The notes below the pieces were generated by a model. It ran no database searches and was not told the DNA's origin. It saw only the letters and a program-made list of their open reading frames with translations. Below, piece by piece: positions 4,900-55,422 of a stretch of 64,000 bases of DNA; within the stretch, counting starts at the first letter, position 1, and the number at the start of each line of letters is the position of its first letter. The stretch comes from an uncultured Alphaproteobacteria bacterium. Its GTDB lineage: Bacteria > Pseudomonadota > Alphaproteobacteria > Methylaequorales > Methylaequoraceae. The position numbers were made by a program, and so were the translations under genes. The stretch spans positions 64,504 through 128,503 of the forward strand of contig CACHGK010000001.1 of NCBI GenBank assembly GCA_902579395.1. The letters are read 5' to 3'.

Positions 4900-6264
4900 T
4901 TAAATCCAAATATCAGATGAGCAATCACCGCCGGGATATCTTGTTTCATGAGCTCGAGAAGGACCATTTGGTTCTTTTCCAAAATCTATTAAAAAATTAT
5001 CTCTAATTTTCATACCACCTTTTTCATTGTCACAATCAACAATTAGCATCATGCCTCCAGATTCGTTCATTTTTGGATAGAATTGATTATCCCAGGATGA
5101 AAATAAAGATGTAGTTACATACAATCTTTTACCATCAAGTGAGAGTTGAATCATTTGAGGAGCACCGTTAACTTCTCTTCCGTTAACATTATTAGCTTTT
5201 CCTAATAATCCTCCTATCCAAACTTGTCCTGTAAGTTTAGGTTGTGAAGGATTAGAAATATCATACTGCCTTAGATCACCGTGAAGCCAATTAGAAAAAT
5301 AAAGGTATTTATCATCCATTGATACTAAAATATCTGTGATTAAGCCAGGCATTGGGACTGGGAGAATTTTGTTATCTATTGACTCTACATCTATAATTTT
5401 TTCTATTCTATAATCATTATCTGAGGTTTTATACCAGTGGAATATATTTGAGCTTAATGCGGCTCCAACGAAGCCATGACTTGAATCAGGATTGTGATGA
5501 AATCTTACCTCTAACGGAATCAAACCCTCATCACCAAGGTCTACAGATTTAATTATCTTTTTTTCTTTGAAATTCCAAAAATGAATGTGCCTTCCGTAAT
5601 TATTTTTTGAAACGTCCTCTAAGTTAAAACCAGGTATAAATGTTTTTGGAGCACCCCATTCTGTGGATACCATAATATTATGCCTTGGTTGATACCAAAA
5701 ATCATAACTAAAATTCATCCCTTTTATATCTTTCTCCCATCTTCCTACAATTTCAAAATCCTTGTTTAGATGAAGAAATCCTCCAGGAGCATTACCATTG
5801 GCGTCACCAAGCATTGAAACGATTATTTCTGAGCCTAGACAATGGACAGTATGAGGAGAAGAAAGATTTGTTTTCTGCTTTATTTCTTCTCCAGAAATTG
5901 TTTTATATAAAGTTGGTTTTTTGGAATCAGTTGCCGTGTCTACTATATAAAAATTACTACTTTGTAATCCAGGTATGATTAAATATTTTCTTTGCATTTT
6001 TTCATCATCATGACATGATGAACAAGCATTCCAACCCATATGATGCAACTCATCTCCATAATTTCCAAGTTCAGTTCTACATATAACTTTGCCATAAGTT
6101 GGACTTTCAATATCAACATCAATAGTAGCAAGATAGTCCGGTTTTTTAATATTACTTCCAGTATAGATGCATACTGTGTAAACTACTTTCTCCTTAGGCG
6201 CTTTTAATGCTTCTTGTGGAGAGGCATAGCCTGGTCCTGAACAACATTTAACTTCATCTAACAT
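4900..6264 (-). CDS. selenium-binding protein 56 family / methanethiol oxidase homologue, no signal peptide
   Basis: 454-aa ORF that aligns end to end, from memory, with eukaryotic SELENBP1. Shared segments include N-terminal CCSGPGYASPQEALK, DELHHMGWNACSSC, YDFWYQPRHNIMVSTEW, MPGLITDILVSMDDKYLYFSNWLHGDLRQYDIS, PQMIQLSLDGKRLYVTTSL and C-terminal RYPGGDCSSDIWI. Confidence 0.85.
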   Translation of the reverse strand: MLDEVKCCSGPGYASPQEALKAPKEKVVYTVCIYTGSNIKKPDYLATIDVDIESPTYGKVICRTELGNYGDELHHMGWNACSSCHDDEKMQRKYLIIPGLQSSNFYIVDTATDSKKPTLYKTISGEEIKQKTNLSSPHTVHCLGSEIIVSMLGDANGNAPGGFLHLNKDFEIVGRWEKDIKGMNFSYDFWYQPRHNIMVSTEWGAPKTFIPGFNLEDVSKNNYGRHIHFWNFKEKKIIKSVDLGDEGLIPLEVRFHHNPDSSHGFVGAALSSNIFHWYKTSDNDYRIEKIIDVESIDNKILPVPMPGLITDILVSMDDKYLYFSNWLHGDLRQYDISNPSQPKLTGQVWIGGLLGKANNVNGREVNGAPQMIQLSLDGKRLYVTTSLFSSWDNQFYPKMNESGGMMLIVDCDNEKGGMKIRDNFLIDFGKEPNGPSRAHETRYPGGDCSSDIWI

Positions 6265-6344
6265 AATTTATTCCCTTAAAATTATTTAATATTATATAAT
6301 CATTTTAAAGATCTTTTTTTCTTTTTTATTTAAGGTAAAATTTA

Positions 6345-6725
6345 TTAAAAGATTTTTGTTGCCAAAAAAGCAAAGAAAAAACCAATTAAATAAAGTATCG
6401 ATGAAATATACAGCATTGTTAAATTTATATATCTAAGTTTCGAGCAAAGATTTGCCAATTTAGCATCAGATGGACATGGAGATTTTCTTTCCTTCAAAAA
6501 TAGTATAATTGAAAAAAAAATCATAAATCCAGCTGTTATAAAAATCTCAATTTTATATTTAGATATAATTGTTATCCAGGGAAATACAGAGATTATACTA
6601 GCTAATGCTGCGCCCATTCCAAGTGTTATAAGTAATGCAGGTAAGGCACAGCAAATCAATGTACTAAAGCTTGCAAACAAACTTAGTATAGGTGTAAAAA
6701 ATTGTTTAAATAAGCTTCTATTCAC
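6345..6725 (-). CDS. MerT-topology small metal-transport membrane protein (putative)
   Basis: 126 aa with three predicted TM helices. TM1 carries the vicinal cysteines LICCALPALL, comparable to the MerT CCLGPL motif. The loop before TM3 carries a second Cys pair (SPCPSDAKLANLC). It overlaps the upstream HMA gene by 8 nt. Confidence 0.4.
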   Translation of the reverse strand: MNRSLFKQFFTPILSLFASFSTLICCALPALLITLGMGAALASIISVFPWITIISKYKIEIFITAGFMIFFSIILFLKERKSPCPSDAKLANLCSKLRYINLTMLYISSILYLIGFFFAFLATKIF

Positions 6726-7023
6726 GGTTTATCTCAACTATATCATAACCAGAATCATTTATTATTTGTTTTATGGTTTGATTATCCAAGTTTTTATTTT
6801 TCTTTAATCTCACCGTTATTAACATTTTTTCTAAATTTACATCAATATCTAAAACTGATTCTCTTTTCATAAAAAGTTTTTCAATTGATCTTGCGCAAAA
6901 ATCACAAACCAACCCATTCACTGATATAGTAAAAAAATCTTTAGTATTTTCCTTATTCTCTGCATTTGTCAGATTACTCATAAGAATCAATATAGAAAAA
7001 GTTATATAAAAAAATAATTTCAT
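6718..7023 (-). CDS. periplasmic heavy-metal-associated (HMA, MerP/CopZ-like) protein
   Basis: 101 aa with an N-terminal signal peptide (ILILMSNLTNA-EN). An HMA fold signature follows: ISVNGLVCDFCARSIEKLF (CxxC) ... DVNLEKMLITVRL ... DSGYDIVEI. Confidence 0.7.
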   Translation of the reverse strand: MKLFFYITFSILILMSNLTNAENKENTKDFFTISVNGLVCDFCARSIEKLFMKRESVLDIDVNLEKMLITVRLKKNKNLDNQTIKQIINDSGYDIVEINRE

Positions 7024-7034
7024 TTTTATTCTCC

Positions 7035-7682
7035 CTAAAATCTTTTTATAAAATTAAAAGTAAAGTTATTATTGTTGCTAAGCCCTGTCTCTAACAAATA
7101 ATCGTCTTTAAACAATCTCAGCAAAGGTGTAAAAACCATTTTGTCTTGAACATTGGGCATATGTTGAATTTCTAACATAAACCAAGTATGCAAATCCCCA
7201 TATTTTCCTATATAAGGAGAGTATCCTACTCGAGCTTTTTGAACAAAAAATTTATCAATCGAAGAGTTATAATTTATTCTATTTTCATAACTTGTGAAAT
7301 ACCGCCTATCTTCCCAGTCAAAAGACAAACCAGAAAAAAAATTTGGCTCAATTTTTTTTTCAAAGTTTTTATAATCACTAAAGGCAATACCTAAACCATT
7401 TTTAAGATAAAAATTTGTCTGAGATTTCGACGTGTTTATTCGTTTTATGAGATAATTTAACTGTGTGCCATGAAACTGCCACTCTTTTTTTCTCCAAAAC
7501 TCACTTTTATAACCGATAGAATATTTTATTGAAGGAGAAAAATGAAAATGGAAACTATGTTTATTAAAATCATTCATTTGCATAATTGTCCAACCTCCTG
7601 CATAAGAAATTGGTCTAGCATGTGATTTGGTTATAAAAATCAACACTGATAAAAAAAAACAGCGAAGTATAATTTTATTCAT
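7035..7682 (-). CDS. putative small outer-membrane beta-barrel protein
   Basis: 215 aa with a signal peptide (FITKSHA-RP). It has alternating aromatic/polar strands rich in Y/F/W/N and a C-terminal ...FNFIKRF ending in Phe, as in OMP barrels. I recognise no family. Confidence 0.35.
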   Translation of the reverse strand: MNKIILRCFFLSVLIFITKSHARPISYAGGWTIMQMNDFNKHSFHFHFSPSIKYSIGYKSEFWRKKEWQFHGTQLNYLIKRINTSKSQTNFYLKNGLGIAFSDYKNFEKKIEPNFFSGLSFDWEDRRYFTSYENRINYNSSIDKFFVQKARVGYSPYIGKYGDLHTWFMLEIQHMPNVQDKMVFTPLLRLFKDDYLLETGLSNNNNFTFNFIKRF

Positions 7683-7739
7683 TACATTCTCCTTCTAAAT
7701 ATGGGCTGAAAAGAAAGTTATCTTCTTTTCTTTAAATTT

Positions 7740-8081
7740 TCAGGATAAAAATCTTGGTGGTGGATCCTCTGTTTTGAGGTTTAATGAATTAAATTTTTCG
7801 AGAAAGTTATTCAAATGGGGTGTAAAATTTACAGAAATTAAAAATTTAATATATTCAAGTTTTTGTATTTGAATTAAATGACAATCACATTTAAAGCAAA
7901 ATTGTAATGTTTTTTTTTCTGTAGAATGACTGTGACAATTCTCATCGTTCTTGACTTTTTTATATAAATGATCTTTTAATTCGTGTTTGCTAATACAAAT
8001 GGAGATGGATTTGCTTAAAACATTTGAAGTCATCAATCCACTGATAAGCAAAAAAAATAAAAAAAATTTATAAAATTTCAC
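7740..8081 (-). CDS. secreted Cys/His-rich small protein, unknown function
   Basis: 113 aa with a signal peptide and clustered potential metal ligands (ENCHSHS, CFKCDCH). It is the first gene of the minus-strand arm, divergent from the TonB-dependent receptor. Confidence 0.3.
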   Translation of the reverse strand: MKFYKFFLFFLLISGLMTSNVLSKSISICISKHELKDHLYKKVKNDENCHSHSTEKKTLQFCFKCDCHLIQIQKLEYIKFLISVNFTPHLNNFLEKFNSLNLKTEDPPPRFLS

Positions 8082-8218
8082 ATTATTAATTTAATATAAA
8101 TTTTTTTAAATAAAAGGCCTTTAGTATTAAATTCTTAAACATTCACGGAATAATTATAAGTTTCAGTGCGTCTAAATTAGTACTTACGAAATTTTAATCT
8201 ATTTTGTTAGGTGAAGGG

Positions 8219-8248
8219 TTGACAAAATAATAAGTGTTATAATATAAC
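8219..8248 (+). promoter_or_regulatory. sigma70-type promoter candidate for the TonB-dependent receptor operon
   Basis: TTGACA lies at 8219-8224. An 18-nt spacer leads to TATAAC (8243-8248). A consensus TATAAT at 8238-8243 would have only a 13-nt spacer. AGGAAA, a possible RBS, lies at 8272-8277 before the ATG at 8282. Confidence 0.45.
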
Positions 8249-8253
8249 GTTTA
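8231..8253. promoter_or_regulatory. Zur-type (Fur-family) operator candidate
   Basis: The sequence is TAAGTGTTATAATATAACGTTTA. Its core GTTATA-A-TATAAC (8236-8248) is a perfect 13-nt palindrome. It matches 18 of 22 specified positions of the proteobacterial Zur box as I recall it (GAAATGTTATAnTATAACATTTC). It overlaps the -10 region. Confidence 0.5.
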
Positions 8254-8281
8254 TATTAATTACTTAACCTCTAGGAAATCA

Positions 8282-10246
8282 ATGTTCAAAAAATTTATCC
8301 CCTTTTTAATCTTGCTATTTGCAGCAAATTTAAATGCTGAAAATATAGAATCTATTTTTGTTGCACCTGATGTATTTATTACATCAAAAATTAAGCCAAG
8401 TACTGAGTATGAAAGTGACAGAGGCAATATTTTATTTGATGGTCATGAAATTGAAAAAAAAAGAAAATACTCTATTGGTGATATGTTAAAAGATTTACCT
8501 GGTATTTCTTCAAAAGGTCTTGGTAACGCTTCGCGACCTATAATACGAGGTATGACTAATTCGAGAGTTAAAATTCTTCAGAATAGTAGTGGTACTACAG
8601 ATGTATCTGAATTTGGTGAGGATCACATAGTAGGTTATGATCCAATGCTGATTGACAAAATTGAGATTATTAAAGGTCCTGGAACATTATTGTATGGTAA
8701 TAATGGATTTGCAGGTGTAGTTAATATAATTAATCCTCTAGTAGCTGTTGACAAACCTGTAACTGACGAAAATGTGGAGGCAAATTTTGGTTACACTACA
8801 TCCGGCGGTGAACTAAAAGGAAGCATTAAAGCTGCTCAATCAATTGAAAACTTTATTGTTAGACTTAATGCAAGTGGACTAAGTTCAGGTCCTTACGATT
8901 TAGCAAATACCTCAAATAAACAACCAAATTCTTCAAAATTTATGGCATCTGGTGGTGTTGGTTTAACATATAATGATGGTGACAATTATATTGGATTTTC
9001 TTTTGATAAACTTGAAGCTGTTTATGGAAATCCTGGTCCTGAAGGTGAGGAAAACATGACCTCATTAAATCCTACTAAGAATTCATTTAATTTTCAATCG
9101 TCGTTTTCACTTAATACTGCATATTTTAGTAAGTTTAACTTGCAAGGTGCAGTATCCGAATATAATCATTCTGAGAGAACTGGTGACGGAAATAATCACA
9201 ATATTAATTTCTTTAGTGATTTATATGAAATTAAAACTTCTCTTAATCACAAATCAATCATTGATGTTAATAGCGAAGGATTAATTGGGTTCCATTTTCA
9301 AAATTATGATCAAGGTGCCTTAGGGCAAGAGGAAAGTCATTTAGTTCATACAAGAACATCTAGTTTTGCATTATTCGCTCTTGAAAGCTTTAATTTTGAT
9401 TTATTTGACTTGGATATCGGAGGTCGTGTGGAATCAGTTAATTTAAAAAATACTAGTATGGAAAAAGGGTTTTTTCCTGGTGCATTTTCTTCAACAATTA
9501 AAAAAGAAATATTTAATAATAACTCTGTTTTTGGTGGTTTTGACTTTACTCAGAGAGCACCTAATGCAGTTGAATTATTTGCTAATGGTCCACATCATGC
9601 ACAAGAACAATTTGAAATCGGGGATAGCAACATGGATGTCGAAACCTCTTATAATTTTTCTTTAGGGTATAGCTATAATAATGGCTTAGATACCTTTAAA
9701 ATTGAAACATATTATAATTATATTGACGATTTTATTGCGGCAGACAGAGATGGTACTACTACATTAGTTGAGGGTGAAGACATGAACGATGTTAATTTTA
9801 CTCAATATAATGCAATCTTCACTGGTTTAGAGGTTGGTGGTCAGTATGCTTTTGCCAAAGTTAATGACTTTGATTTCATTTCTAATGTTATGATTGACTT
9901 TCTAAAAGGATACCGAACTTCAAATGATAAAGCTTTATCATTAATACCTCAAACAAAGATGAACTTTGGTATAAAAGCCATAAATGAAAATTGGGATGCA
10001 AATCTAAATTACTTCCATTATTTTGATAAGGAATTTATAGGGCCATTTCAAACTAGAACTGGGGGGCACTCAAGATTGGATTTTGATTTAACACGAGACT
10101 TTAACTATTCTGATCTCTCTGGTCATTTAATGTTTACGGCTTCTAATTTACTTGATGTTGTTGGAAGAAATCATTTAGAGGCGAAAAAAGCAAATGTCCA
10201 ATTGCCTGGAAGAAGTTTTATGTTTATGCTTAAATTATTTTACTAA
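8282..10246 (+). CDS. TonB-dependent outer-membrane receptor (metal-type)
   Basis: 654 aa with a signal peptide (LLFAANLNA-EN). Plug-domain motifs are present (DLPGISSKGLGNASRPIIRGM, IEIIKGPGTLLYGNNGFAGVVNI). The barrel motif RAPNAVELFANGPHHAQEQFEIGD and a C-terminal aromatic residue (...LKLFY) are also present. Confidence 0.85.
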   Translation: MFKKFIPFLILLFAANLNAENIESIFVAPDVFITSKIKPSTEYESDRGNILFDGHEIEKKRKYSIGDMLKDLPGISSKGLGNASRPIIRGMTNSRVKILQNSSGTTDVSEFGEDHIVGYDPMLIDKIEIIKGPGTLLYGNNGFAGVVNIINPLVAVDKPVTDENVEANFGYTTSGGELKGSIKAAQSIENFIVRLNASGLSSGPYDLANTSNKQPNSSKFMASGGVGLTYNDGDNYIGFSFDKLEAVYGNPGPEGEENMTSLNPTKNSFNFQSSFSLNTAYFSKFNLQGAVSEYNHSERTGDGNNHNINFFSDLYEIKTSLNHKSIIDVNSEGLIGFHFQNYDQGALGQEESHLVHTRTSSFALFALESFNFDLFDLDIGGRVESVNLKNTSMEKGFFPGAFSSTIKKEIFNNNSVFGGFDFTQRAPNAVELFANGPHHAQEQFEIGDSNMDVETSYNFSLGYSYNNGLDTFKIETYYNYIDDFIAADRDGTTTLVEGEDMNDVNFTQYNAIFTGLEVGGQYAFAKVNDFDFISNVMIDFLKGYRTSNDKALSLIPQTKMNFGIKAINENWDANLNYFHYFDKEFIGPFQTRTGGHSRLDFDLTRDFNYSDLSGHLMFTASNLLDVVGRNHLEAKKANVQLPGRSFMFMLKLFY

Positions 10247-10249
10247 TAA

Positions 10250-10618
10250 ATGTTTAAATATTACTCATCATACGCATTGGTTTTCAGTAATTTTACCCAT
10301 CTTTTATGTTGTGGTTTGCCCACTATCATCGGTTTAAGTTCATTGCTAACCAATTTTATGTTTATTGAAGTGTTCATTTCCAATATAGAGGCATTCGAAG
10401 CTTTTGAAATTTATCTTTTTGTAATATCCTCTTCAATTCTATTAATGCTTGTTTTACAAGAAATTTACAACAGAAAAATTAAATGTTCTGATGACATAGA
10501 TTGTTGTGAAGCTAAAGAATGTGAGTCCACAAAAAAAAAAATAAAGATCAATATTATTTTTTCCTTAGTGCTATATATATTTAACAGTACATTGTTTCTA
10601 TATGAGATTATCACTTAA
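10250..10618 (+). CDS. MerT-topology small membrane protein, paralogue-like of 6345..6725
   Basis: 122 aa. TM1 carries HLLCCGLPTIIG, a second TM follows, then a Cys-rich loop (KCSDDIDCCEAKECES) and a third TM. It starts 3 nt after the receptor stop. Confidence 0.35.
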   Translation: MFKYYSSYALVFSNFTHLLCCGLPTIIGLSSLLTNFMFIEVFISNIEAFEAFEIYLFVISSSILLMLVLQEIYNRKIKCSDDIDCCEAKECESTKKKIKINIIFSLVLYIFNSTLFLYEIIT

Positions 10619-10620
10619 AA

Positions 10621-11265
10621 ATGATTTATTATTTTAACGAAAGTGATTCTTTTGATATTTTTAAAAAAAGAGACGAACAAATAGGAGTTCTAAACAGAAA
10701 GTCTCCTAAAAACTGCATGAATTTTTTTAAAAAATTACTTAAAACACCTTTTTCTATATCTGGAATTGTAGGTCAAAAAAATACAAGAATGGACATCGAG
10801 AGACATCTTAAACATAATATTTCCAAAAGCATTCAATATGATTCATTTTATGATAACTGGTTAAATGATATGAGTGAGATCTGTAAAATGTTCTGTATTT
10901 TTCAAAAGCAAAAGAAAGTTAGTTTTTGGCTTGGATCTGATAGAGGTTGTAAGCGTTATCATGTCGATATGGTTCCTTTTAGATTATTAGTTACTTATTC
11001 TGGTCAGGGCACTGAAATTTTACCCAATGAAGCTGCTGATCGTAATGCATTTATTCAGGGTGAATCTAATGAAAAAATTGTGAGGGATAAATCTAAATTA
11101 ATGCATTTAAGTGATTGGGATATTTCTATATTTCGAGGCGGAAAGAACGGGATACTTCATCGGACACCAAATTCGGCTTTAGAAGGCAAATCATCTGTTC
11201 TAATGCGTCTAGATCACGAAGATTACCTTACTGAGATTTATAAAATAAATGGAGCTTATGGCTAA
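10621..11265 (+). CDS. cytoplasmic protein with HxD...H motif, DUF1826-like (tentative)
   Basis: 214 aa with no signal peptide. The segment CKRYHVDMVPFRLLVTYSGQGTEIL ... GILHRTP resembles, from memory, the DUF1826 family, which is often found in Zur regulons. HVD...H could form a metal facial triad. It starts 2 nt after the previous gene. Confidence 0.35.
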   Translation: MIYYFNESDSFDIFKKRDEQIGVLNRKSPKNCMNFFKKLLKTPFSISGIVGQKNTRMDIERHLKHNISKSIQYDSFYDNWLNDMSEICKMFCIFQKQKKVSFWLGSDRGCKRYHVDMVPFRLLVTYSGQGTEILPNEAADRNAFIQGESNEKIVRDKSKLMHLSDWDISIFRGGKNGILHRTPNSALEGKSSVLMRLDHEDYLTEIYKINGAYG

Positions 11266-11291
11266 ATCCCAGTATATTAATGACTAAATAG

Positions 11292-11879
11292 TTATTCTCC
11301 AATAAATTTATGGTTTTTGAATCTTCCTATTTGAACATCTCCATTTTCAAAAGTAAATTTACCGTTACCATTAAATAAATTATTTCTAAATTCACCTTCG
11401 TATTTATCACCATTAGCATATGTAAAAACCCCCTTTCCGTTTATAAAACCATCCTTAAAATCTCCAGTATAAATATCCCCAGAGGAAAAGGTCTGTGTTC
11501 CTTTACCATGAGGTAGATCATTTACAAAATCTCCCTCATAATGTTCTCCGTCGGAAAAAATAGATTTCCCCCTACCATGATATAAACCATTTCTAAACTC
11601 TCCCTCATACCTGTCACCATTTGAAAAAGTAAATATACCTTGACCATTTTGGAGTCCATCTAAGAATTCCCCTTCATATATGTTTCCATTTTGATAAAGA
11701 TAGGTTCCATTGCCGTTGTATTTATAATTTTTTATTTCACCGACGTATTTTTCCCCATTCTTATGGACTATTGTTCCAAAACATAGTGTATCAAAATTAC
11801 CATTACATGGTGGAAGAGAGTATGAATGACTTGAAATAAATAAAAATATTGTAAGAGCCAACTTATAGAATTTGTACAT
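11292..11879 (-). CDS. secreted MORN-repeat protein
   Basis: 195 aa with a signal peptide. About seven tandem 23-aa units of the form YxGEfxnGxxnGxGxxxfxnGd follow, for example YEGEFRNGLYHGRGKSIFSDGEH. Confidence 0.8.
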   Translation of the reverse strand: MYKFYKLALTIFLFISSHSYSLPPCNGNFDTLCFGTIVHKNGEKYVGEIKNYKYNGNGTYLYQNGNIYEGEFLDGLQNGQGIFTFSNGDRYEGEFRNGLYHGRGKSIFSDGEHYEGDFVNDLPHGKGTQTFSSGDIYTGDFKDGFINGKGVFTYANGDKYEGEFRNNLFNGNGKFTFENGDVQIGRFKNHKFIGE

Positions 11880-11942
11880 GTAAATTAGATAATCATTAAT
11901 TAATAAATCTACTACATAAAAAAAATTATTTTTGGTTAATAA

Positions 11943-12944
11943 TTAAAACTTTCCTTTTATTAAAAGCCAAAATTCTTTATAAACATCACTATTAAAATTC
12001 CTCAAATTTTTATATTTTACGTGCTGATTCTCATTTTTTGGATCGACCTCTATTCCCCATAATGATTTATAATCATAAGGTAAAGTACCATAACGAAGGT
12101 CAGCAATTATATTATTATAATCTGGATGTATAAAGATAAAATCTTGAGAAAAAAAAGAGAACCTTCTAATATCCTCTCTTTGAATAGAATTTTTACCTAA
12201 TTCAGGAAATACCTTTTCCTTATCAATAACCTTTAAACGCACTCCATCTTTTATTTTTATTTTACCAAATAATGGGGCATAGACTGCATCAACATAATAG
12301 TAATTATTAGATTGATAAATACTTCTCCACAATATGTTATTGCCTATAGTTGGATTAAATAATTTTCGACTGATAATATGATTTCTTTCTTCAGCTACAT
12401 TCTGAATTGACTGATCCACTCTATTTTTTTGAAAAAAACCAAGAAATAAATATAAGACTGAAATTAAGATCCCAAAACTTACATATTTAGTCGATTTAGT
12501 TAAAATTCCAGCGATCAAAAATATTAAAAGAACGCTAGTGTAAATTGGATCAATTATAGAAATTATGTTTAAAGATACTCTTTTTTCAGAAAAAGGCCAG
12601 AATATATTTGTACCATAACTTGTACATGCATCAAGTAAACCGTGAGTTAGGAAACCTAATGTAACAAACAAATATATGTTTTTAAAAGATTGTTTATTTT
12701 TAAAAAAAATATAAAGAAACATAGTCACAAGTAGAGCACCAAAAGGAACAAAAAATAATGAGTGTGAAAAATGTCTATGATATTCGATAAATAATAATGA
12801 GTCATTTGCTGACCTTATTAAAATGTCTAAATCGGCACTCACTCCACCTATAAAGCCGAAAAAAAATGCAGATTTAAGATCTTTTTTTTTTGCTTTTGAA
12901 CAAGCTAAACTCGCTCCAATTAAACCTTGAGAACACGGATCCAT
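11943..12944 (-). CDS. membrane-bound metal-dependent hydrolase (YdjM/YbcI, DUF457-like) with C-terminal extension
   Basis: 333 aa. The N-terminal ~170 aa are polytopic, with MDPCSQGLIGASLA, HRHFSHSL and LTHGLLD His-rich motifs typical of DUF457. A soluble tail of ~150 aa follows. Confidence 0.5.
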   Translation of the reverse strand: MDPCSQGLIGASLACSKAKKKDLKSAFFFGFIGGVSADLDILIRSANDSLLFIEYHRHFSHSLFFVPFGALLVTMFLYIFFKNKQSFKNIYLFVTLGFLTHGLLDACTSYGTNIFWPFSEKRVSLNIISIIDPIYTSVLLIFLIAGILTKSTKYVSFGILISVLYLFLGFFQKNRVDQSIQNVAEERNHIISRKLFNPTIGNNILWRSIYQSNNYYYVDAVYAPLFGKIKIKDGVRLKVIDKEKVFPELGKNSIQREDIRRFSFFSQDFIFIHPDYNNIIADLRYGTLPYDYKSLWGIEVDPKNENQHVKYKNLRNFNSDVYKEFWLLIKGKF

Positions 12945-12947
12945 TAA

Positions 12948-13226
12948 TTATTCACCAATTTTTTTTGGACAATCTTGTTTAGTACTTGGAAGTGTAATTT
13001 TTTTTTGACCTTTGATATTATTATAAATACAAAATTTCTGATTATTATATTCAAAGGATTTTATTAGTCCCATGCCCATTGGACCAGAAAATGTTCTTTC
13101 ATTAGTAATATATTGGTCATCAGGGATATATAATGCTTTAGGTAGCTTAATCTCAGCGTTAAGAACCTTAGGTATGTAAAATAAAGACTGATAAATAATT
13201 ATACAGTAAATTATAATTATTGGCAT
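12948..13226 (-). CDS. hypothetical small membrane-anchored protein
   Basis: 92-aa ORF with an N-terminal hydrophobic anchor. It ends 3 nt upstream of the DUF457-like gene. I recognise no family. Confidence 0.3.
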   Translation of the reverse strand: MPIIIIYCIIIYQSLFYIPKVLNAEIKLPKALYIPDDQYITNERTFSGPMGMGLIKSFEYNNQKFCIYNNIKGQKKITLPSTKQDCPKKIGE

Positions 13227-13302
13227 CGATTACAAGTAAAAAAAATTTTAAGGTTTACGAAATTCTTTAAGGAAAATATGGAATGACTCAGTTCTATCAA
13301 AT

Positions 13303-13341
13303 CAAGAAAGAAAAACTCGCGTCATTTAAAAATGACGCGAG
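13303..13341 (-). terminator. rho-independent terminator of the cytochrome c / sugar dehydrogenase operon
   Basis: On the minus strand the hairpin is CTCGCGTCAT-TTTTAA-ATGACGCGAG, a 10-bp GC-containing stem at 13316-13341. It is followed by TTTTTCTTTCTTG and starts 15 nt after the stop codon at 13356. Confidence 0.8.
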
Positions 13342-13355
13342 CAAATCTTCTATAT

Positions 13356-14660
13356 TTACTTAGCCGTTGCAGTAATTTTGTAGATTTCTCCTTCATCTAC
13401 AGCTGCGTAAAGAGCTCCATCAGGACCTAATCTTAGACCTCTGAATCTCTTTGTTAGACCAGTTGGCATGTGAATCACACTTTTAATTGATTGACCATCT
13501 TTAGCAATGTCAACAACATCAATTCTCATACCAGAAGGTGTTCCACCGAAACCAATACCCATGATTCCAACAGCCATACGACCTTCCCAGTAACCCCAGT
13601 TACTTCCTTTTAAGAAAGCAGCTGAGCCAGTACCTTGAGATAAGCCGTTATTGTTCCATGCCGGTGGCATCAAGTCACTAAAACGAGTGTCACTCATAGG
13701 CATGAACTGAGCACGCTTAGCAGGAAGCATACCTTCTTTTTGATTTGGCATATATCCACAATATTTATCAGGACAATCACCACGTCCACCAACGTTAGGA
13801 CGAGGATCCCATCCGCCGTTACCACCGTTTACTAAAGCAGTGATTTCGTCATTTTGCCATGGACCATGTTCAGCAGTAAATGCTCTTCCATCACTAGGAC
13901 GGAAATCAATTCCCTGAACATTTCTGTGACCATAAGTATACATACGCTTATCGAAACCTCTTGGAGGTTTGTTTCCAGGATGTGCTTTTCCGTCAGTATC
14001 AATTCTTAATACGTTTCCACCTAATAATTTAGGAGATTGCGGAACAACACCTCTATGACGGTCACCAGTTGTAGCCCAAAGATATCCTTCAGGACCGAAA
14101 CGTAATCTGTTTCCGTTATGTGCACCTGGTCCACCAAATGGGTGATTTGATTCGAATGGTTTATATTGAATATCTTTTACAATATCAACACGGTTAGATA
14201 CACTTTTGAAGTCTTTACTAACTTCCATTCTCATAATGATGTTACCATCACATTTTTCAAAGTTAGTTTTACAACCACTACCATGATATTTATCTGAAGT
14301 GGAAGCTACGTAAATCCTTCTATTCTTATTGAAATTAGGATCTACAGCTACGCCCATCATACCAGCTTGTCCTGAGCAGAAAAGATCGTCATTAGTACTA
14401 GCGTACCCTTTAGAACCTTTCATACCTGCAAGAGCATTAACAGCTCCTGAACTTGTTTTTACAGATAAACCTTTACATTTTTCTGTATAAAACATGTCAC
14501 CACCACTAGTAAATGCCATGTCCCACGGATTTTCCAAACCGTTCATTATAGACATTGCACTAATATTTGGGGTATTCATTGTATCAGCATTACTTGGCGA
14601 TGCCATAAGAGCTGCAGTAGCAACAACAGCTGCTGATAAAAGTTTAGATTTTTTAATCAT
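13356..14660 (-). CDS. periplasmic PQQ-dependent (soluble glucose/sorbosone dehydrogenase family) sugar dehydrogenase
   Basis: 434 aa with a signal peptide (AALMASPSNA-DT). GSDH-family motifs are present: LENPWDMAF, HNGNRLRFGPEGYLWATTGD, GNVLRIDTDG, YGHRNVQGIDF, EHGPWQNDEI and GGNGGWD. Confidence 0.8.
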   Translation of the reverse strand: MIKKSKLLSAAVVATAALMASPSNADTMNTPNISAMSIMNGLENPWDMAFTSGGDMFYTEKCKGLSVKTSSGAVNALAGMKGSKGYASTNDDLFCSGQAGMMGVAVDPNFNKNRRIYVASTSDKYHGSGCKTNFEKCDGNIIMRMEVSKDFKSVSNRVDIVKDIQYKPFESNHPFGGPGAHNGNRLRFGPEGYLWATTGDRHRGVVPQSPKLLGGNVLRIDTDGKAHPGNKPPRGFDKRMYTYGHRNVQGIDFRPSDGRAFTAEHGPWQNDEITALVNGGNGGWDPRPNVGGRGDCPDKYCGYMPNQKEGMLPAKRAQFMPMSDTRFSDLMPPAWNNNGLSQGTGSAAFLKGSNWGYWEGRMAVGIMGIGFGGTPSGMRIDVVDIAKDGQSIKSVIHMPTGLTKRFRGLRLGPDGALYAAVDEGEIYKITATAK

Positions 14661-53800: not shown

Positions 53801-55422
53801 TTAAAACTATTTTCCAATAAAGCATTTATAAAAGAATTGAAAATTGGATGAGGATTAAAAGGTGTTGATTTTAATTCCGGGTGAAATTGCACTCCCAAGA
53901 ACCATGGATGATCATTTCTTTCAATTATTTCAACTAGATTTCCATCTGGTGACATTCCCGACAAGACGACTCCACTTTTTTCAATTTGTTTTTTATAGTT
54001 GTAATTTACCTCATAACGATGTCTATGTCTTTCACTGATTTTGTTTTTTTTATAAATGCTATGAGCTTTAGATTTTTTTTTTAGAATTGCAGTGTAGGAA
54101 CCAAGTCTCATGCTTCCACCAAGATTATTTTTATCATGAATAAAAATTTTTTTATTTTTCTTCCATTCATGTATCATTGAAATTACCGGTAGAGAAGTCT
54201 TACCAAATTCAGTTGATGAAGCTTTCTCATATCCTTTCAAATTACTAATTGATTCTAAAATAGCTAATTGCATACCAAAACATATTCCCAAATATGGAAT
54301 AGAATTTTTTTTTGAAATTTTTATAGCATTGATTTTACCAAGTGTACCATCCTTTCCAAAACCACCAGGAACTAAGATACCATTACAATTATTCAATTCT
54401 TTTTCACATTTTTTTAAATCTTCAATTTTCTTTGAATCCACCCATTTTATTTCAACTTTAGTATTATTGAATATCCCACTATGAAATAAGGCTTCGTTCA
54501 ATGATTTATATGATTCAGATAAATTTGTATACTTTCCTACTATAGCAACTTTAACTTTTGATTTAAGTTGACTTATTTTTTTTAAAAAATCTTCCCATGG
54601 TCTCAAATTAAGTGTTCTTTTATTTTTAATTTCAAAATGATTTAATAATTGTTTAAGTAACCCTTGGTTATACAACATTAAAGGGATTTCATAAATTGTA
54701 ATGGCGTTCTCAACTAAAATTACTGAATCTAAAGAGGTATTACAAAAAAGTGAGATTTTACTTTTTTCCTTCTTATCAAATTTTTTTTCAGCTCTACATA
54801 AAAGTAAGTCTGGTTGGATTCCCAGACCAAGAAGTTCCTTAACTGAATGTTGAGTAGGTTTGGTCTTAAATTCATTTGCAGAAGTTAAAAAAGGTACAAG
54901 TGTTAAATGAATAAAAAGAGTTTGATTTTTCCCCAATTCGTTTCTTAATTGTCTAATAGCTTCAAGAAAAGGCAAACTTTCTATATCACCAACAGTCCCT
55001 CCGATTTCACAAATAACAAAATCTTCATTTTTTAAATCTTTTTTTATAAATTTTTTTATCTCATTAGTAACATGAGGAATCACTTGAACTGTTGAACCAA
55101 GATAATCTCCTCTTCTTTCTTTTTTTAATACCTCTTCATAAATTTTTCCAGTTGTAATGTTATCATTTTTCTTTGAAATAATACCTGTAAATCTTTCATA
55201 ATGTCCTAAATCCATATCAGTTTCAGCACCATCATCTGTTACGAAAACCTCACCATGCTGAGAGGGATTCATAGTTCCTGGATCTATATTTAAGTAAGGG
55301 TCTAACTTTCTGACTCTAACTTTATAATTACTTAAGCTTAAAAGAGATGCAATTGAGGAGGAGACAATACCTTTACCCAGTGATGAAACAACACCACCGG
55401 TAATAAAGATAAATTTAGTCAT
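53797..55422 (-). CDS. pyrG: CTP synthase
   Basis: 541 aa with FITGGVVSSLGKGI, EIGGTVGDIES, the glutaminase motif GICFGMQ and VQFHPE. Confidence 0.97.
   Translation of the reverse strand: MTKFIFITGGVVSSLGKGIVSSSIASLLSLSNYKVRVRKLDPYLNIDPGTMNPSQHGEVFVTDDGAETDMDLGHYERFTGIISKKNDNITTGKIYEEVLKKERRGDYLGSTVQVIPHVTNEIKKFIKKDLKNEDFVICEIGGTVGDIESLPFLEAIRQLRNELGKNQTLFIHLTLVPFLTSANEFKTKPTQHSVKELLGLGIQPDLLLCRAEKKFDKKEKSKISLFCNTSLDSVILVENAITIYEIPLMLYNQGLLKQLLNHFEIKNKRTLNLRPWEDFLKKISQLKSKVKVAIVGKYTNLSESYKSLNEALFHSGIFNNTKVEIKWVDSKKIEDLKKCEKELNNCNGILVPGGFGKDGTLGKINAIKISKKNSIPYLGICFGMQLAILESISNLKGYEKASSTEFGKTSLPVISMIHEWKKNKKIFIHDKNNLGGSMRLGSYTAILKKKSKAHSIYKKNKISERHRHRYEVNYNYKKQIEKSGVVLSGMSPDGNLVEIIERNDHPWFLGVQFHPELKSTPFNPHPIFNSFINALLENSFK

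What the first reader, a model, noticed from the sequence alone, without database searches (positions are those of the whole stretch)
8219..8253. Zur-type palindrome embedded in the promoter of the TonB-dependent receptor operon
TAAGTGTTATAATATAACGTTTA contains a perfect 13-nt palindrome, GTTATA-A-TATAAC. It matches 18 of 22 specified positions of the proteobacterial Zur box as I remember it (GAAATGTTATAnTATAACATTTC). It overlaps the -10 element downstream of a consensus TTGACA, the classic repressor position. This is a rare, clear cis-regulatory signal in an otherwise regulation-poor, AT-rich region. It predicts zinc-repressed expression of the operon. G/C at symmetric positions makes a chance AT-rich palindrome less likely, though not impossible.
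Basis: partly seen in the sequence, partly recalled or inferred. Interest (0 to 1): 0.6.

Follow-up and report, generated by a model that had tools for sequence, protein, structure and literature searches.

The report
Conserved Zur operator at zinc-receptor promoter
The short palindrome is very probably a real binding site for the zinc-sensing repressor Zur. It sits on the promoter of a zinc-uptake operon in an uncultured marine alphaproteobacterium, which makes it a sound but ordinary kind of gene switch.

Summary
GTTATAATATAAC lies at 8236-8248, 11 nt after TTGACA (8219-8224) and 33 nt before the ATG of a ZnuD-like TonB-dependent receptor.

Within the window alone the palindrome is not significant. 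Genome and comparative evidence make the case:
- The exact 13-mer occurs twice in the 1.3 Mb assembly, against about 0.1 expected.
- The second copy fills the -35/-10 spacer of a ZigA-like COG0523 zinc-chaperone gene 18.8 kb upstream.
- A matrix trained only on relatives finds just these two sites (26.5 and 27.8 bits; next 15.6; none of 40 simulated genomes reached 20).
- The box precedes the receptor in all 28 orthologous loci (25 distinct promoters), with a -35 at fixed distance while the flanks diverge.

This assembly has no zur gene, only Fur/Mur-like and Irr-like paralogues. The zur-bearing block of a close relative maps exactly into a gap between two contig ends. Zur is present in 20 of 24 relatives and often adjoins the receptor operon.

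No ZnuA or ZIP importer was found, so the regulon looks minimal. Binding and zinc response are untested. An earlier follow-up on this same operon reached the same Zur reading.

The parts
8219..8224 (+). -35 hexamer TTGACA of the receptor-operon promoter
   Evidence: Read directly. TTGAC(A) recurs at a fixed 11-12 nt upstream of the palindrome in most orthologous promoters. In the box-anchored profile it forms a second information island at -24 to -18.
8231..8253 (.). 23-nt Zur box TAAGTGTTATAATATAACGTTTA (predicted Zur operator)
   Evidence: It matches 18 of 22 positions of the gamma-proteobacterial consensus. It scores 26.5 bits with a matrix trained on relatives only, where the maximum in 40 simulated genomes was 18.2.
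8236..8248 (.). Perfect 13-nt palindromic core GTTATA-A-TATAAC (GTTA-N5-TAAC)
   Evidence: One of only two exact copies in the 1.3 Mb assembly. It is exact in 27 of 28 orthologous loci, and one has GATATATTATAAC.
8243..8248 (+). Candidate -10 hexamer TATAAC (18-nt spacer); the alternative is TAATAT at 8240-8245 (15-nt spacer). Both lie inside the palindrome.
   Evidence: From sequence only. The transcription start is not mapped. The consensus scan does not list it.
8273..8276 (+). Likely ribosome-binding site AGGA, 5 nt before the ATG
   Evidence: From sequence. GGAAA(T/A)CAATG is conserved in genus-level orthologues.
8282..10246 (+). ZnuD-like TonB-dependent receptor (654 aa), first gene of the controlled operon
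   Evidence: Pfam finds Plug and TonB barrel domains. The best NCBIfam hit is ZnuD at 210.6 bits, below the 950-bit cut-off. The best PDB hit is ZnuD 4rdr at E 1.5e-35, with the next at 3.9e-9.
10250..10618 (+). 122-aa cysteine-rich membrane protein (faint MerT likeness), second gene
   Evidence: It starts 3 nt after the receptor stop. It is conserved downstream of the receptor in relatives. The MerT match is only E 0.005 at 16.9 bits.
10621..11265 (+). DUF1826 protein (214 aa), third gene
   Evidence: Pfam PF08856 at 81.9 bits. Conserved in the operon. DUF1826 has been reported in Zur regulons. In relative G011 a stand-alone DUF1826 gene has its own box.

Best explanation
The palindrome is the operator of the zinc uptake regulator Zur, a Fur-family repressor. 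When zinc is sufficient, zinc-loaded Zur dimers would bind the 7-1-7 inverted repeat (consensus wAArTGTTATAwTATAACAyTTw). The repeat covers the -10 region and the distal spacer of the TTGACA promoter. Bound Zur would exclude RNA polymerase and shut off the three-gene operon: ZnuD-like outer-membrane receptor, small Cys-rich membrane protein and DUF1826 protein. When zinc is scarce, Zur loses its sensing zinc, leaves the DNA, and the operon is transcribed.

The same regulator would control a second promoter 18.8 kb upstream, at genome contig C1 positions 53946-53958, outside the window. There the box fills the spacer of TTGAAA-N17-TAATAT ahead of a ZigA-like COG0523 zinc metallochaperone.

Shown here: the sequence, its rarity, its conservation and fixed promoter geometry, its association with zinc genes, and the presence of Zur in relatives. 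Inferred: Zur binding, repression, zinc responsiveness, and the presence of zur in this organism's unassembled DNA.
For: (1) The site matches the published Zur consensus and the GTTA-N5-TAAC core used for proteobacteria, including Caulobacter.

(2) The genome holds only two exact copies, both in promoters of zinc-type genes. One is the ZnuD-like receptor. The other is a ZigA-like COG0523 scoring 589.4 bits against a 600-bit cut-off, matched over the full length of the model.

(3) A matrix trained without this genome's own sites gives 27.8 and 26.5 bits for these two sites and 15.6 for the next. None of 40 simulated genomes reached 20 bits.

(4) Phylogenetic footprint. The box lies upstream of the receptor in all 28 orthologous loci, which give 25 distinct promoters, down to 61% protein identity. 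It forms an information island at -10 to +9, with a -35 island at fixed distance and uninformative flanks. Five distant relatives carry two tandem boxes.

(5) Across 24 family relatives there are 36 exact boxes, against 3 for the reversed-sequence control.

(6) Relatives encode a third Fur paralogue of 143 aa with two CxxC pairs. Its best PDB matches are Zur proteins (7dh7 at 2.4e-25, 4mtd at 1.4e-20, against at best 2.7e-7 for PerR and Fur). Its best NCBIfam match is Zur. This gene lies within about 3.5 kb of the receptor operon in G011, G018, G019, G021, G022 and G024. In G011 the box sits in the short divergent zur-receptor region.

(7) The box sits at different places relative to the -35 in the two promoters: over the -10 here and mid-spacer at COG0523. 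That fits steric repression, as reported for the Zur-regulated Caulobacter receptors znuK and znuL.
Against: No zur gene is in this assembly. It holds only a Fur/Mur-like and an Irr-like paralogue, so the cognate regulator is inferred from a syntenic assembly gap and from relatives.

There are no expression or binding data, the transcription start is unmapped, and the -10 hexamer is non-canonical.

The regulon has only two sites here, and the classical corroborating targets (znuABC, zupT, ribosomal paralogues) are absent.

Co-occurrence of zur and box among relatives is imperfect. G007 and G010 have zur but no exact box. G006 has boxes but no zur was found, in a 58%-complete assembly.

Within the window alone the palindrome is not statistically remarkable.
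Confidence: 0.87

Rival explanations
1. The box is an operator for a regulator other than Zur and reports another signal such as iron. Candidates are the Fur/Mur-like or Irr-like proteins that this assembly does encode, or an unrelated dimeric factor.
For: The only Fur-family genes actually present in the assembly are Fur/Mur-like and Irr-like. TonB-dependent receptors are more often iron-regulated than zinc-regulated. Fur-family boxes are all AT-rich 7-1-7 repeats.
Against: The best match to the classical Fur box anywhere in 8082-8281 has 7 of 19 mismatches. The site fits the Zur consensus at 18 of 22 positions. The only co-regulated gene is a ZigA-like zinc chaperone, and the receptor is ZnuD-like rather than siderophore- or haem-type. 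The box is physically linked to the zur gene in several relatives. The family genomes in which no zur was found, G016, G017 and G001, have no exact box even though they have Fur paralogues.
Confidence: 0.06
2. It is a chance AT-rich palindrome, or merely the -10 and spacer sequence of a strong promoter, with no repressor bound.
For: The genome is 29.7% G+C. In the window alone a match at up to 1 mismatch is expected 0.30 times. At two mismatches the motif is no commoner than its reversed control. The palindrome contains TATAAT-like hexamers, which promoters need anyway.
Against: Both arms are conserved, including the left arm, which lies in the spacer where promoters are not sequence-constrained. 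This holds in all 28 orthologous loci while the flanks diverge. The second genomic copy sits at a different position in another zinc-gene promoter. There are 36 exact copies against 3 for the control in relatives. No simulated genome reached 20 bits.
Confidence: 0.03
3. It is a Zur box with a different or wider role. It could act bidirectionally, also controlling the divergent minus-strand cluster (113-aa Cys/His peptide, 215-aa protein, HMA protein, MerT-like protein and SBP56). Or it could act as an activator site for that arm.
For: The 200-nt intergenic region is shared with the minus-strand cluster. A promoter-like TTGTCA-N18-TAGATT on the minus strand at 8225-8196 overlaps the plus-strand -35. 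The divergent 113-aa gene is syntenic in several genus-level relatives. Zur activation from sites upstream of a -35 is documented in Caulobacter.
Against: In more distant relatives the upstream neighbour differs, while the box stays at a fixed distance from the receptor's -35 and ATG. So the box belongs to the receptor promoter. The minus-arm genes (HMA, SBP56) point to copper or sulfur chemistry rather than zinc. Nothing tested here links them to Zur.
Confidence: 0.1

Closest known systems
Gamma- and beta-proteobacterial Zur box (GAAATGTTATANTATAACATTTC; Panina 2003 as cited in PMC2706843; Yersinia pestis AATGTTATAWTATAACATT)
   Same: It has the same 7-1-7 inverted repeat and the same GTTATA-N-TATAAC core. 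The match is 18 of 22 here and 21 of 22 at the COG0523 site of the same genome. It overlaps core promoter elements and lies upstream of COG0523 and a TonB receptor.
   Different: The host is an alphaproteobacterium. PMC2706843 lists differently spaced boxes for two alphaproteobacterial groups: GTAATGTAATAACATTAC for Agrobacterium and GATATGTTATAACATATC for Rhodobacter. The outer positions here are A/T-biased, and this particular site has G instead of A after AAC.
Caulobacter crescentus Zur regulon: Zur-repressed TonB-dependent receptors ZnuK, ZnuL and ZnuM (PMC4176598)
   Same: It is an alphaproteobacterium with the GTTA-N5-TAAC core. The operator overlaps the -10 of TonB-dependent receptor promoters. 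The regulon is small and dominated by outer-membrane receptors.
   Different: In Caulobacter, binding and zinc response were shown by experiment, whereas here they are only predicted. The Caulobacter regulon includes the znuGHI ABC system under a box. Here a comparable ABC/DUF3299 cluster sits beside zur in relatives but shows no box in the roughly 300 nt examined.
Neisseria meningitidis ZnuD (PDB 4rdr), a Zur-regulated zinc receptor
   Same: It is the closest solved and curated relative of the controlled receptor (E 1.5e-35 in PDB; best NCBIfam model).
   Different: The score of 210.6 bits is far below the 950-bit ZnuD equivalog cut-off. The protein is 654 aa against 748 aa. The operon partners (Cys-rich membrane protein, DUF1826) are not those of Neisseria.

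Membership tests
Zur operator (Zur box) of a proteobacterial Zur regulon | Sequence fits the Zur consensus (GTTA-N5-TAAC core within an AT-rich repeat of about 19-23 bp) | tested here: met
   18 of 22 positions against GAAATGTTATANTATAACATTTC, with an exact GTTA-N5-TAAC core.
Zur operator (Zur box) of a proteobacterial Zur regulon | Dyad symmetry suited to a Fur-family dimer | tested here: met
   A perfect 6-1-6 palindrome, extended to 12-1-12 with 10 of 12 positions complementary.
Zur operator (Zur box) of a proteobacterial Zur regulon | Overlaps the -35, spacer or -10 of the regulated promoter | tested here: inconclusive
   By sequence it covers every plausible -10 that follows a conserved TTGACA at fixed spacing. 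At the COG0523 gene it fills TTGAAA-N17-TAATAT. However, no transcription start is mapped and the promoter scan did not call this pair.
Zur operator (Zur box) of a proteobacterial Zur regulon | The same motif precedes other zinc-homeostasis genes in the same genome | tested here: met
   The only other strong site (27.8 bits) precedes a ZigA-like COG0523 gene. There is no znuABC, zupT or ribosomal paralogue to test.
Zur operator (Zur box) of a proteobacterial Zur regulon | Conserved in orthologous promoters of related genomes | tested here: met
   Present in all 28 orthologous receptor loci, exact in 27, giving 25 distinct promoters. COG0523 sites are conserved in G003, G009 and G011.
Zur operator (Zur box) of a proteobacterial Zur regulon | A cognate zur gene in the same genome | tested here: inconclusive
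   None found in the 79.8%-complete assembly. The zur-bearing 29.6 kb block of relative G005 maps between the ends of contigs C3 and C7. Zur is present in 13 of 15 same-genus and 7 of 9 other family genomes.
Zur operator (Zur box) of a proteobacterial Zur regulon | Zinc-dependent Zur binding and zinc-repressed transcription | not testable with these tools
   This needs EMSA or footprinting and reporter or transcript assays.
Fur (iron) box | Match to GATAATGATAATCATTATC | tested here: not met
   The best match in 8082-8281 has 7 of 19 mismatches.
MerR-type activator operator | A dyad centred in an over-long (19-20 nt) spacer at fixed geometry | tested here: not met
   The dyad centre is 20.5 nt from the -35 centre here, over the -10. 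At the COG0523 promoter it is 10.5 nt away, mid-spacer, and the spacer is a normal 17 nt. The geometry is therefore not fixed.
ZnuD equivalog (NCBIfam NF038289), for the regulated receptor | Score above the curated cut-off | tested here: not met
   210.6 bits against a 950-bit cut-off. ZnuD is nevertheless the best hit in both NCBIfam and PDB, so the receptor is ZnuD-like and not a ZnuD equivalog.

The most novel reading that the evidence does not exclude
In this streamlined marine lineage Zur may govern a minimal regulon of two to four promoters, with no ZnuABC and no ZIP importer. If so, the box at 8231-8253 switches the cell's only high-affinity zinc route. The small Cys-rich MerT-like protein, perhaps with DUF1826, would then be a previously unrecognised inner-membrane or cytoplasmic step of zinc import.
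Probability: 0.3. Interest if true: 0.6.

Novelty: new member of a known kind. Interest (0 to 1): 0.35.

Why it matters
The site gives a confident cis-regulatory anchor in an uncultured, streamlined marine alphaproteobacterium, where almost nothing is known about regulation. It marks the receptor / Cys-rich membrane protein / DUF1826 operon and a ZigA-like chaperone as the zinc-starvation response. It also shows that this lineage uses the 7-1-7 box known from gamma-proteobacteria and Caulobacter.

The lineage appears to lack ZnuABC and ZIP transporters, so the switch probably controls its main zinc-acquisition route. That is relevant to zinc limitation in the surface ocean. As a mechanism, however, it is textbook Zur repression.

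Tried and rejected
- **Chance palindrome.** Rejected on the genome-scale statistics and on conservation, although the window-only statistic is weak.
- **Fur box.** Rejected: 7 of 19 mismatches.
- **MerR-type operator.** Rejected: the geometry differs between the two promoters.
- **Third matrix hit.** C11:16362 scores 15.6 bits. It is a half-site lying over the start codon of a membrane-protein gene and is treated as chance.
- **Two-mismatch search.** A search in five relatives was as frequent as its reversed control and so uninformative.
- **The 115-aa membrane protein.** It is box-associated in G011, G009 and G004, but in this genome it has no box (best score about -7.6) and sits in a different context.
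- **COG0523 no. 2 with a WD40 gene.** This is a further Zur target in relatives and was not found in this assembly.
- **Box in distant relative G027.** It does not precede any recognisable gene.
- **ABC/DUF3299 cluster next to zur.** Relatives show no box there.
- **zur and its neighbours in this genome.** tblastn found nothing, which is explained by the contig gap.
- **Tools and literature.** Literature searches found no description of a Zur regulon in this lineage.

Full report
**What is there.** The window is G000:C1:64504-128503 of a 1.30 Mb, 25-contig assembly with 29.7% G+C that is 79.8% complete. Between the divergent ORFs 7740-8081 (-) and 8282-10246 (+) lies a 200-nt intergenic region. 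It contains TTGACA at 8219-8224, then 11 nt, then the perfect palindrome GTTATA-A-TATAAC at 8236-8248. An AGGA ribosome-binding site follows at 8273-8276 and the ATG at 8282. The repeat finder extends the dyad to 12-1-12 at 8230-8254, with 10 of 12 positions complementary. The 23-mer at 8231-8253 matches 18 of 22 specified positions of GAAATGTTATANTATAACATTTC. One correction: the perfect TATAAT at 8238-8243 is only 13 nt from the -35. The hexamers at usable spacing are TAATAT (15 nt) and TATAAC (18 nt), and both lie inside the palindrome. The simple promoter scan did not call this pair.

**Is it more than chance?** Within the window alone it is not. One match at up to 1 mismatch compares with 0.30 expected, and 29 of 100 shuffles had a match. 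At genome scale it is. The exact 13-mer GTTATAWTATAAC occurs twice in 1.3 Mb, against a mean of 0.1 in 40 second-order Markov simulated genomes. I built a 23-column matrix from sites in relatives only, leaving out this genome's own sites. It gives 27.8 and 26.5 bits for the two sites. The next hit scores 15.6 bits and is a half-site lying over a start codon. No simulated genome reached 20 bits, and the maximum was 18.2.

**The second site.** It lies at C1:53946-53958, 18.8 kb upstream of the first site and outside the window (locus L085 1443-1455). The sequence is GAAATGTTATATTATAACATTTA. It exactly fills the spacer of TTGAAA-N17-TAATAT, 55 nt before the ATG of a 404-aa COG0523 GTPase. That protein scores 589.4 bits against the ZigA zinc-metallochaperone model, matched over the model's full length, against a cut-off of 600.

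**The regulated genes.**
- The 654-aa receptor has Plug and barrel domains. Its best curated family is ZnuD at 210.6 bits, well under the 950-bit equivalog cut-off. Its best solved relative is ZnuD 4rdr at E 1.5e-35, with the next hit at 3.9e-9.
- A 122-aa Cys-rich membrane protein follows after 3 nt. It has only a faint MerT likeness (E 0.005).
- A DUF1826 protein follows after a further 2 nt.

The three-gene order is conserved across the genus and family. DUF1826 proteins have been reported in Zur regulons of Francisella and Pseudomonas and next to Zur-regulated COG0523 genes.

**Comparative footprint.** Orthologous receptors at 61-97% protein identity were found in 17 family genomes and 10 further public records. 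The records are uncultured marine Alphaproteobacteria single-cell and metagenome genomes, some labelled Pelagibacteraceae or Rickettsiales. All 28 loci examined, including this one, have the box 30-90 nt before the start codon. It is exact in 27, and one has GATATATTATAAC. Five distant relatives have two tandem boxes 16-29 nt apart, an arrangement known from other Zur promoters. I anchored the 23 non-redundant sequences, drawn from 25 distinct promoters, on the box. Information content is high from -10 to +9. A second island at -24 to -18 corresponds to TTGAC(A), and the rest is about 0.1-0.3 bits. The box island is partly built in by the anchoring. The -35 island and the universal presence of the box are not. 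The left arm lies in the spacer, where promoters are unconstrained, so its conservation argues for a bound dimer and not merely a -10 element. Across 24 family relatives there are 36 exact boxes against 3 for the reversed-sequence control. Many genus genomes repeat the pair of sites about 18 kb apart on one contig.

**The regulator.** This assembly has two Fur-family genes. One is Fur/Mur-like, without Cys pairs. The other is Irr-like, scoring 149.2 bits against the 150-bit IrrA cut-off. Neither is a Zur. Thirteen of 15 same-genus genomes and 7 of 9 other family genomes carry a third paralogue. It is 143 aa with two CxxC pairs. Its best PDB matches are Zur proteins, 7dh7 at 2.4e-25 and E. coli Zur 4mtd at 1.4e-20, against at best 2.7e-7 for PerR and Fur. 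Its best NCBIfam model is Zur at 100.8 bits, below the 167-bit cut-off, with Fur next at 28.5 bits. tblastn finds neither this gene nor its neighbours in G000. I laid 46 kb around zur from relative G005, whose receptor is 97% identical, on G000. The flanks match contig C3 running to its position 1 and contig C7 starting at its position 1. The 29.6 kb between them, which includes zur, is missing. The absence is therefore best read as an assembly gap, although zur's presence in this organism remains unproven. In G011, G018, G019, G021, G022 and G024 the zur gene lies within about 3.5 kb of the receptor operon. In G011 the box sits in the short divergent zur-receptor region, and in G022 a box lies about 90 nt beyond the 5' end of zur. 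Family genomes in which no zur was found (G001, G016, G017) have no exact box. The exceptions are G007 and G010, which have zur but no exact box, and G006, which has boxes but no zur found at 58% completeness. Relatives are not independent, so this is suggestive only.

**Regulon size.** In the 98%-complete relative G011 the boxes precede four units:
- the receptor and zur pair;
- the ZigA-like COG0523;
- a 115-aa membrane protein divergent from a second COG0523 plus a WD40 gene;
- a stand-alone DUF1826 gene.

No ZnuA (PF01297) or ZIP (PF02535) gene was found in G000 or in four relatives that are 89-99% complete. The regulon seems minimal and receptor-centred, much like that of Caulobacter.

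**Mechanism.** The most likely mechanism is classical Zur repression by promoter occlusion, as reviewed in PMC6103462 and shown for the Caulobacter receptors znuK and znuL, where the operator overlaps the -10. The box lies over the -10 here and mid-spacer at the COG0523 promoter. That variation fits steric repression and not a MerR-type activator, which needs a fixed geometry. A Fur box is excluded by sequence, with 7 of 19 mismatches. Whether the site also affects the divergent minus-strand cluster is open. The box follows the receptor when upstream neighbours change.

**Limits.** An earlier follow-up in this scan on the same operon (e1-3340809) reached the same Zur reading. I did not rely on it and re-derived the evidence here.

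**Verdict.** This is a genuine, conserved Zur box and a new member of a well-known kind of element. It is a solid annotation of modest surprise. Its main added value is that it defines a minimal zinc regulon in an uncultured marine lineage that lacks the usual zinc importers.

Noticed in passing
Genome contig C1:53946-53958 (locus L085 1436-1464), 10.5 kb before the window start: A second Zur box, GAAATGTTATATTATAACATTTA, fills the spacer of TTGAAA-N17-TAATAT ahead of a ZigA-like COG0523 gene. It lies just downstream of a tRNA-Ser(TGA) gene.
   Followed up: yes
G005:C3 about 132-162 kb (loci L083, L062, L084), compared with the ends of G000 contigs C3 and C7: About 29.6 kb present in a close relative falls exactly between two contig ends of this assembly. 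It holds zur and an adjacent ABC ATPase, FtsX-like permease and DUF3299 cluster. The cluster recalls Caulobacter znuGHI but shows no Zur box in the roughly 300 nt examined.
   Followed up: partly
window 10250-10618: A 122-aa membrane protein with a vicinal Cys pair in its first helix (HLLCCGLP) and a CxxxxxCCxxxxC cluster. It has only a faint MerT likeness and is conserved as the second gene of the Zur-controlled operon. With no ZnuABC or ZIP found in this lineage, it is a candidate inner-membrane zinc carrier.
   Followed up: partly
window 4900-8081, minus strand: A divergent cluster comprising a 113-aa Cys/His-rich exported peptide, a 215-aa protein, an HMA (MerP-like) protein, a 126-aa protein and an SBP56 (methanethiol-oxidase-like) enzyme. 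It shares the intergenic region with the Zur-controlled operon. Whether Zur affects it is unknown.
   Followed up: no
L067 (G011:C13) 10695-13788; also L068 and L071: In relatives a further Zur box lies between a 115-aa membrane protein of no known family and a second, His/Asp/Glu-rich COG0523 (454 aa) followed by a bacterial WD40 beta-propeller (344 aa). The COG0523-WD40 pair was not found in this assembly.
   Followed up: partly
G005:C5:137269-137286 and G007:C6:15057-15074: A perfect 18-nt palindrome, TGTTGTAATATTACAACA, recurs in two same-genus genomes. It is absent from this assembly. It may be the operator of another regulator.
   Followed up: no
L044, L046, L047, L074, L078 (receptor promoters of distant relatives): These promoters carry two tandem Zur boxes with centres 16-29 nt apart in place of one, which suggests tighter or cooperative repression in those genera.
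   Followed up: partly
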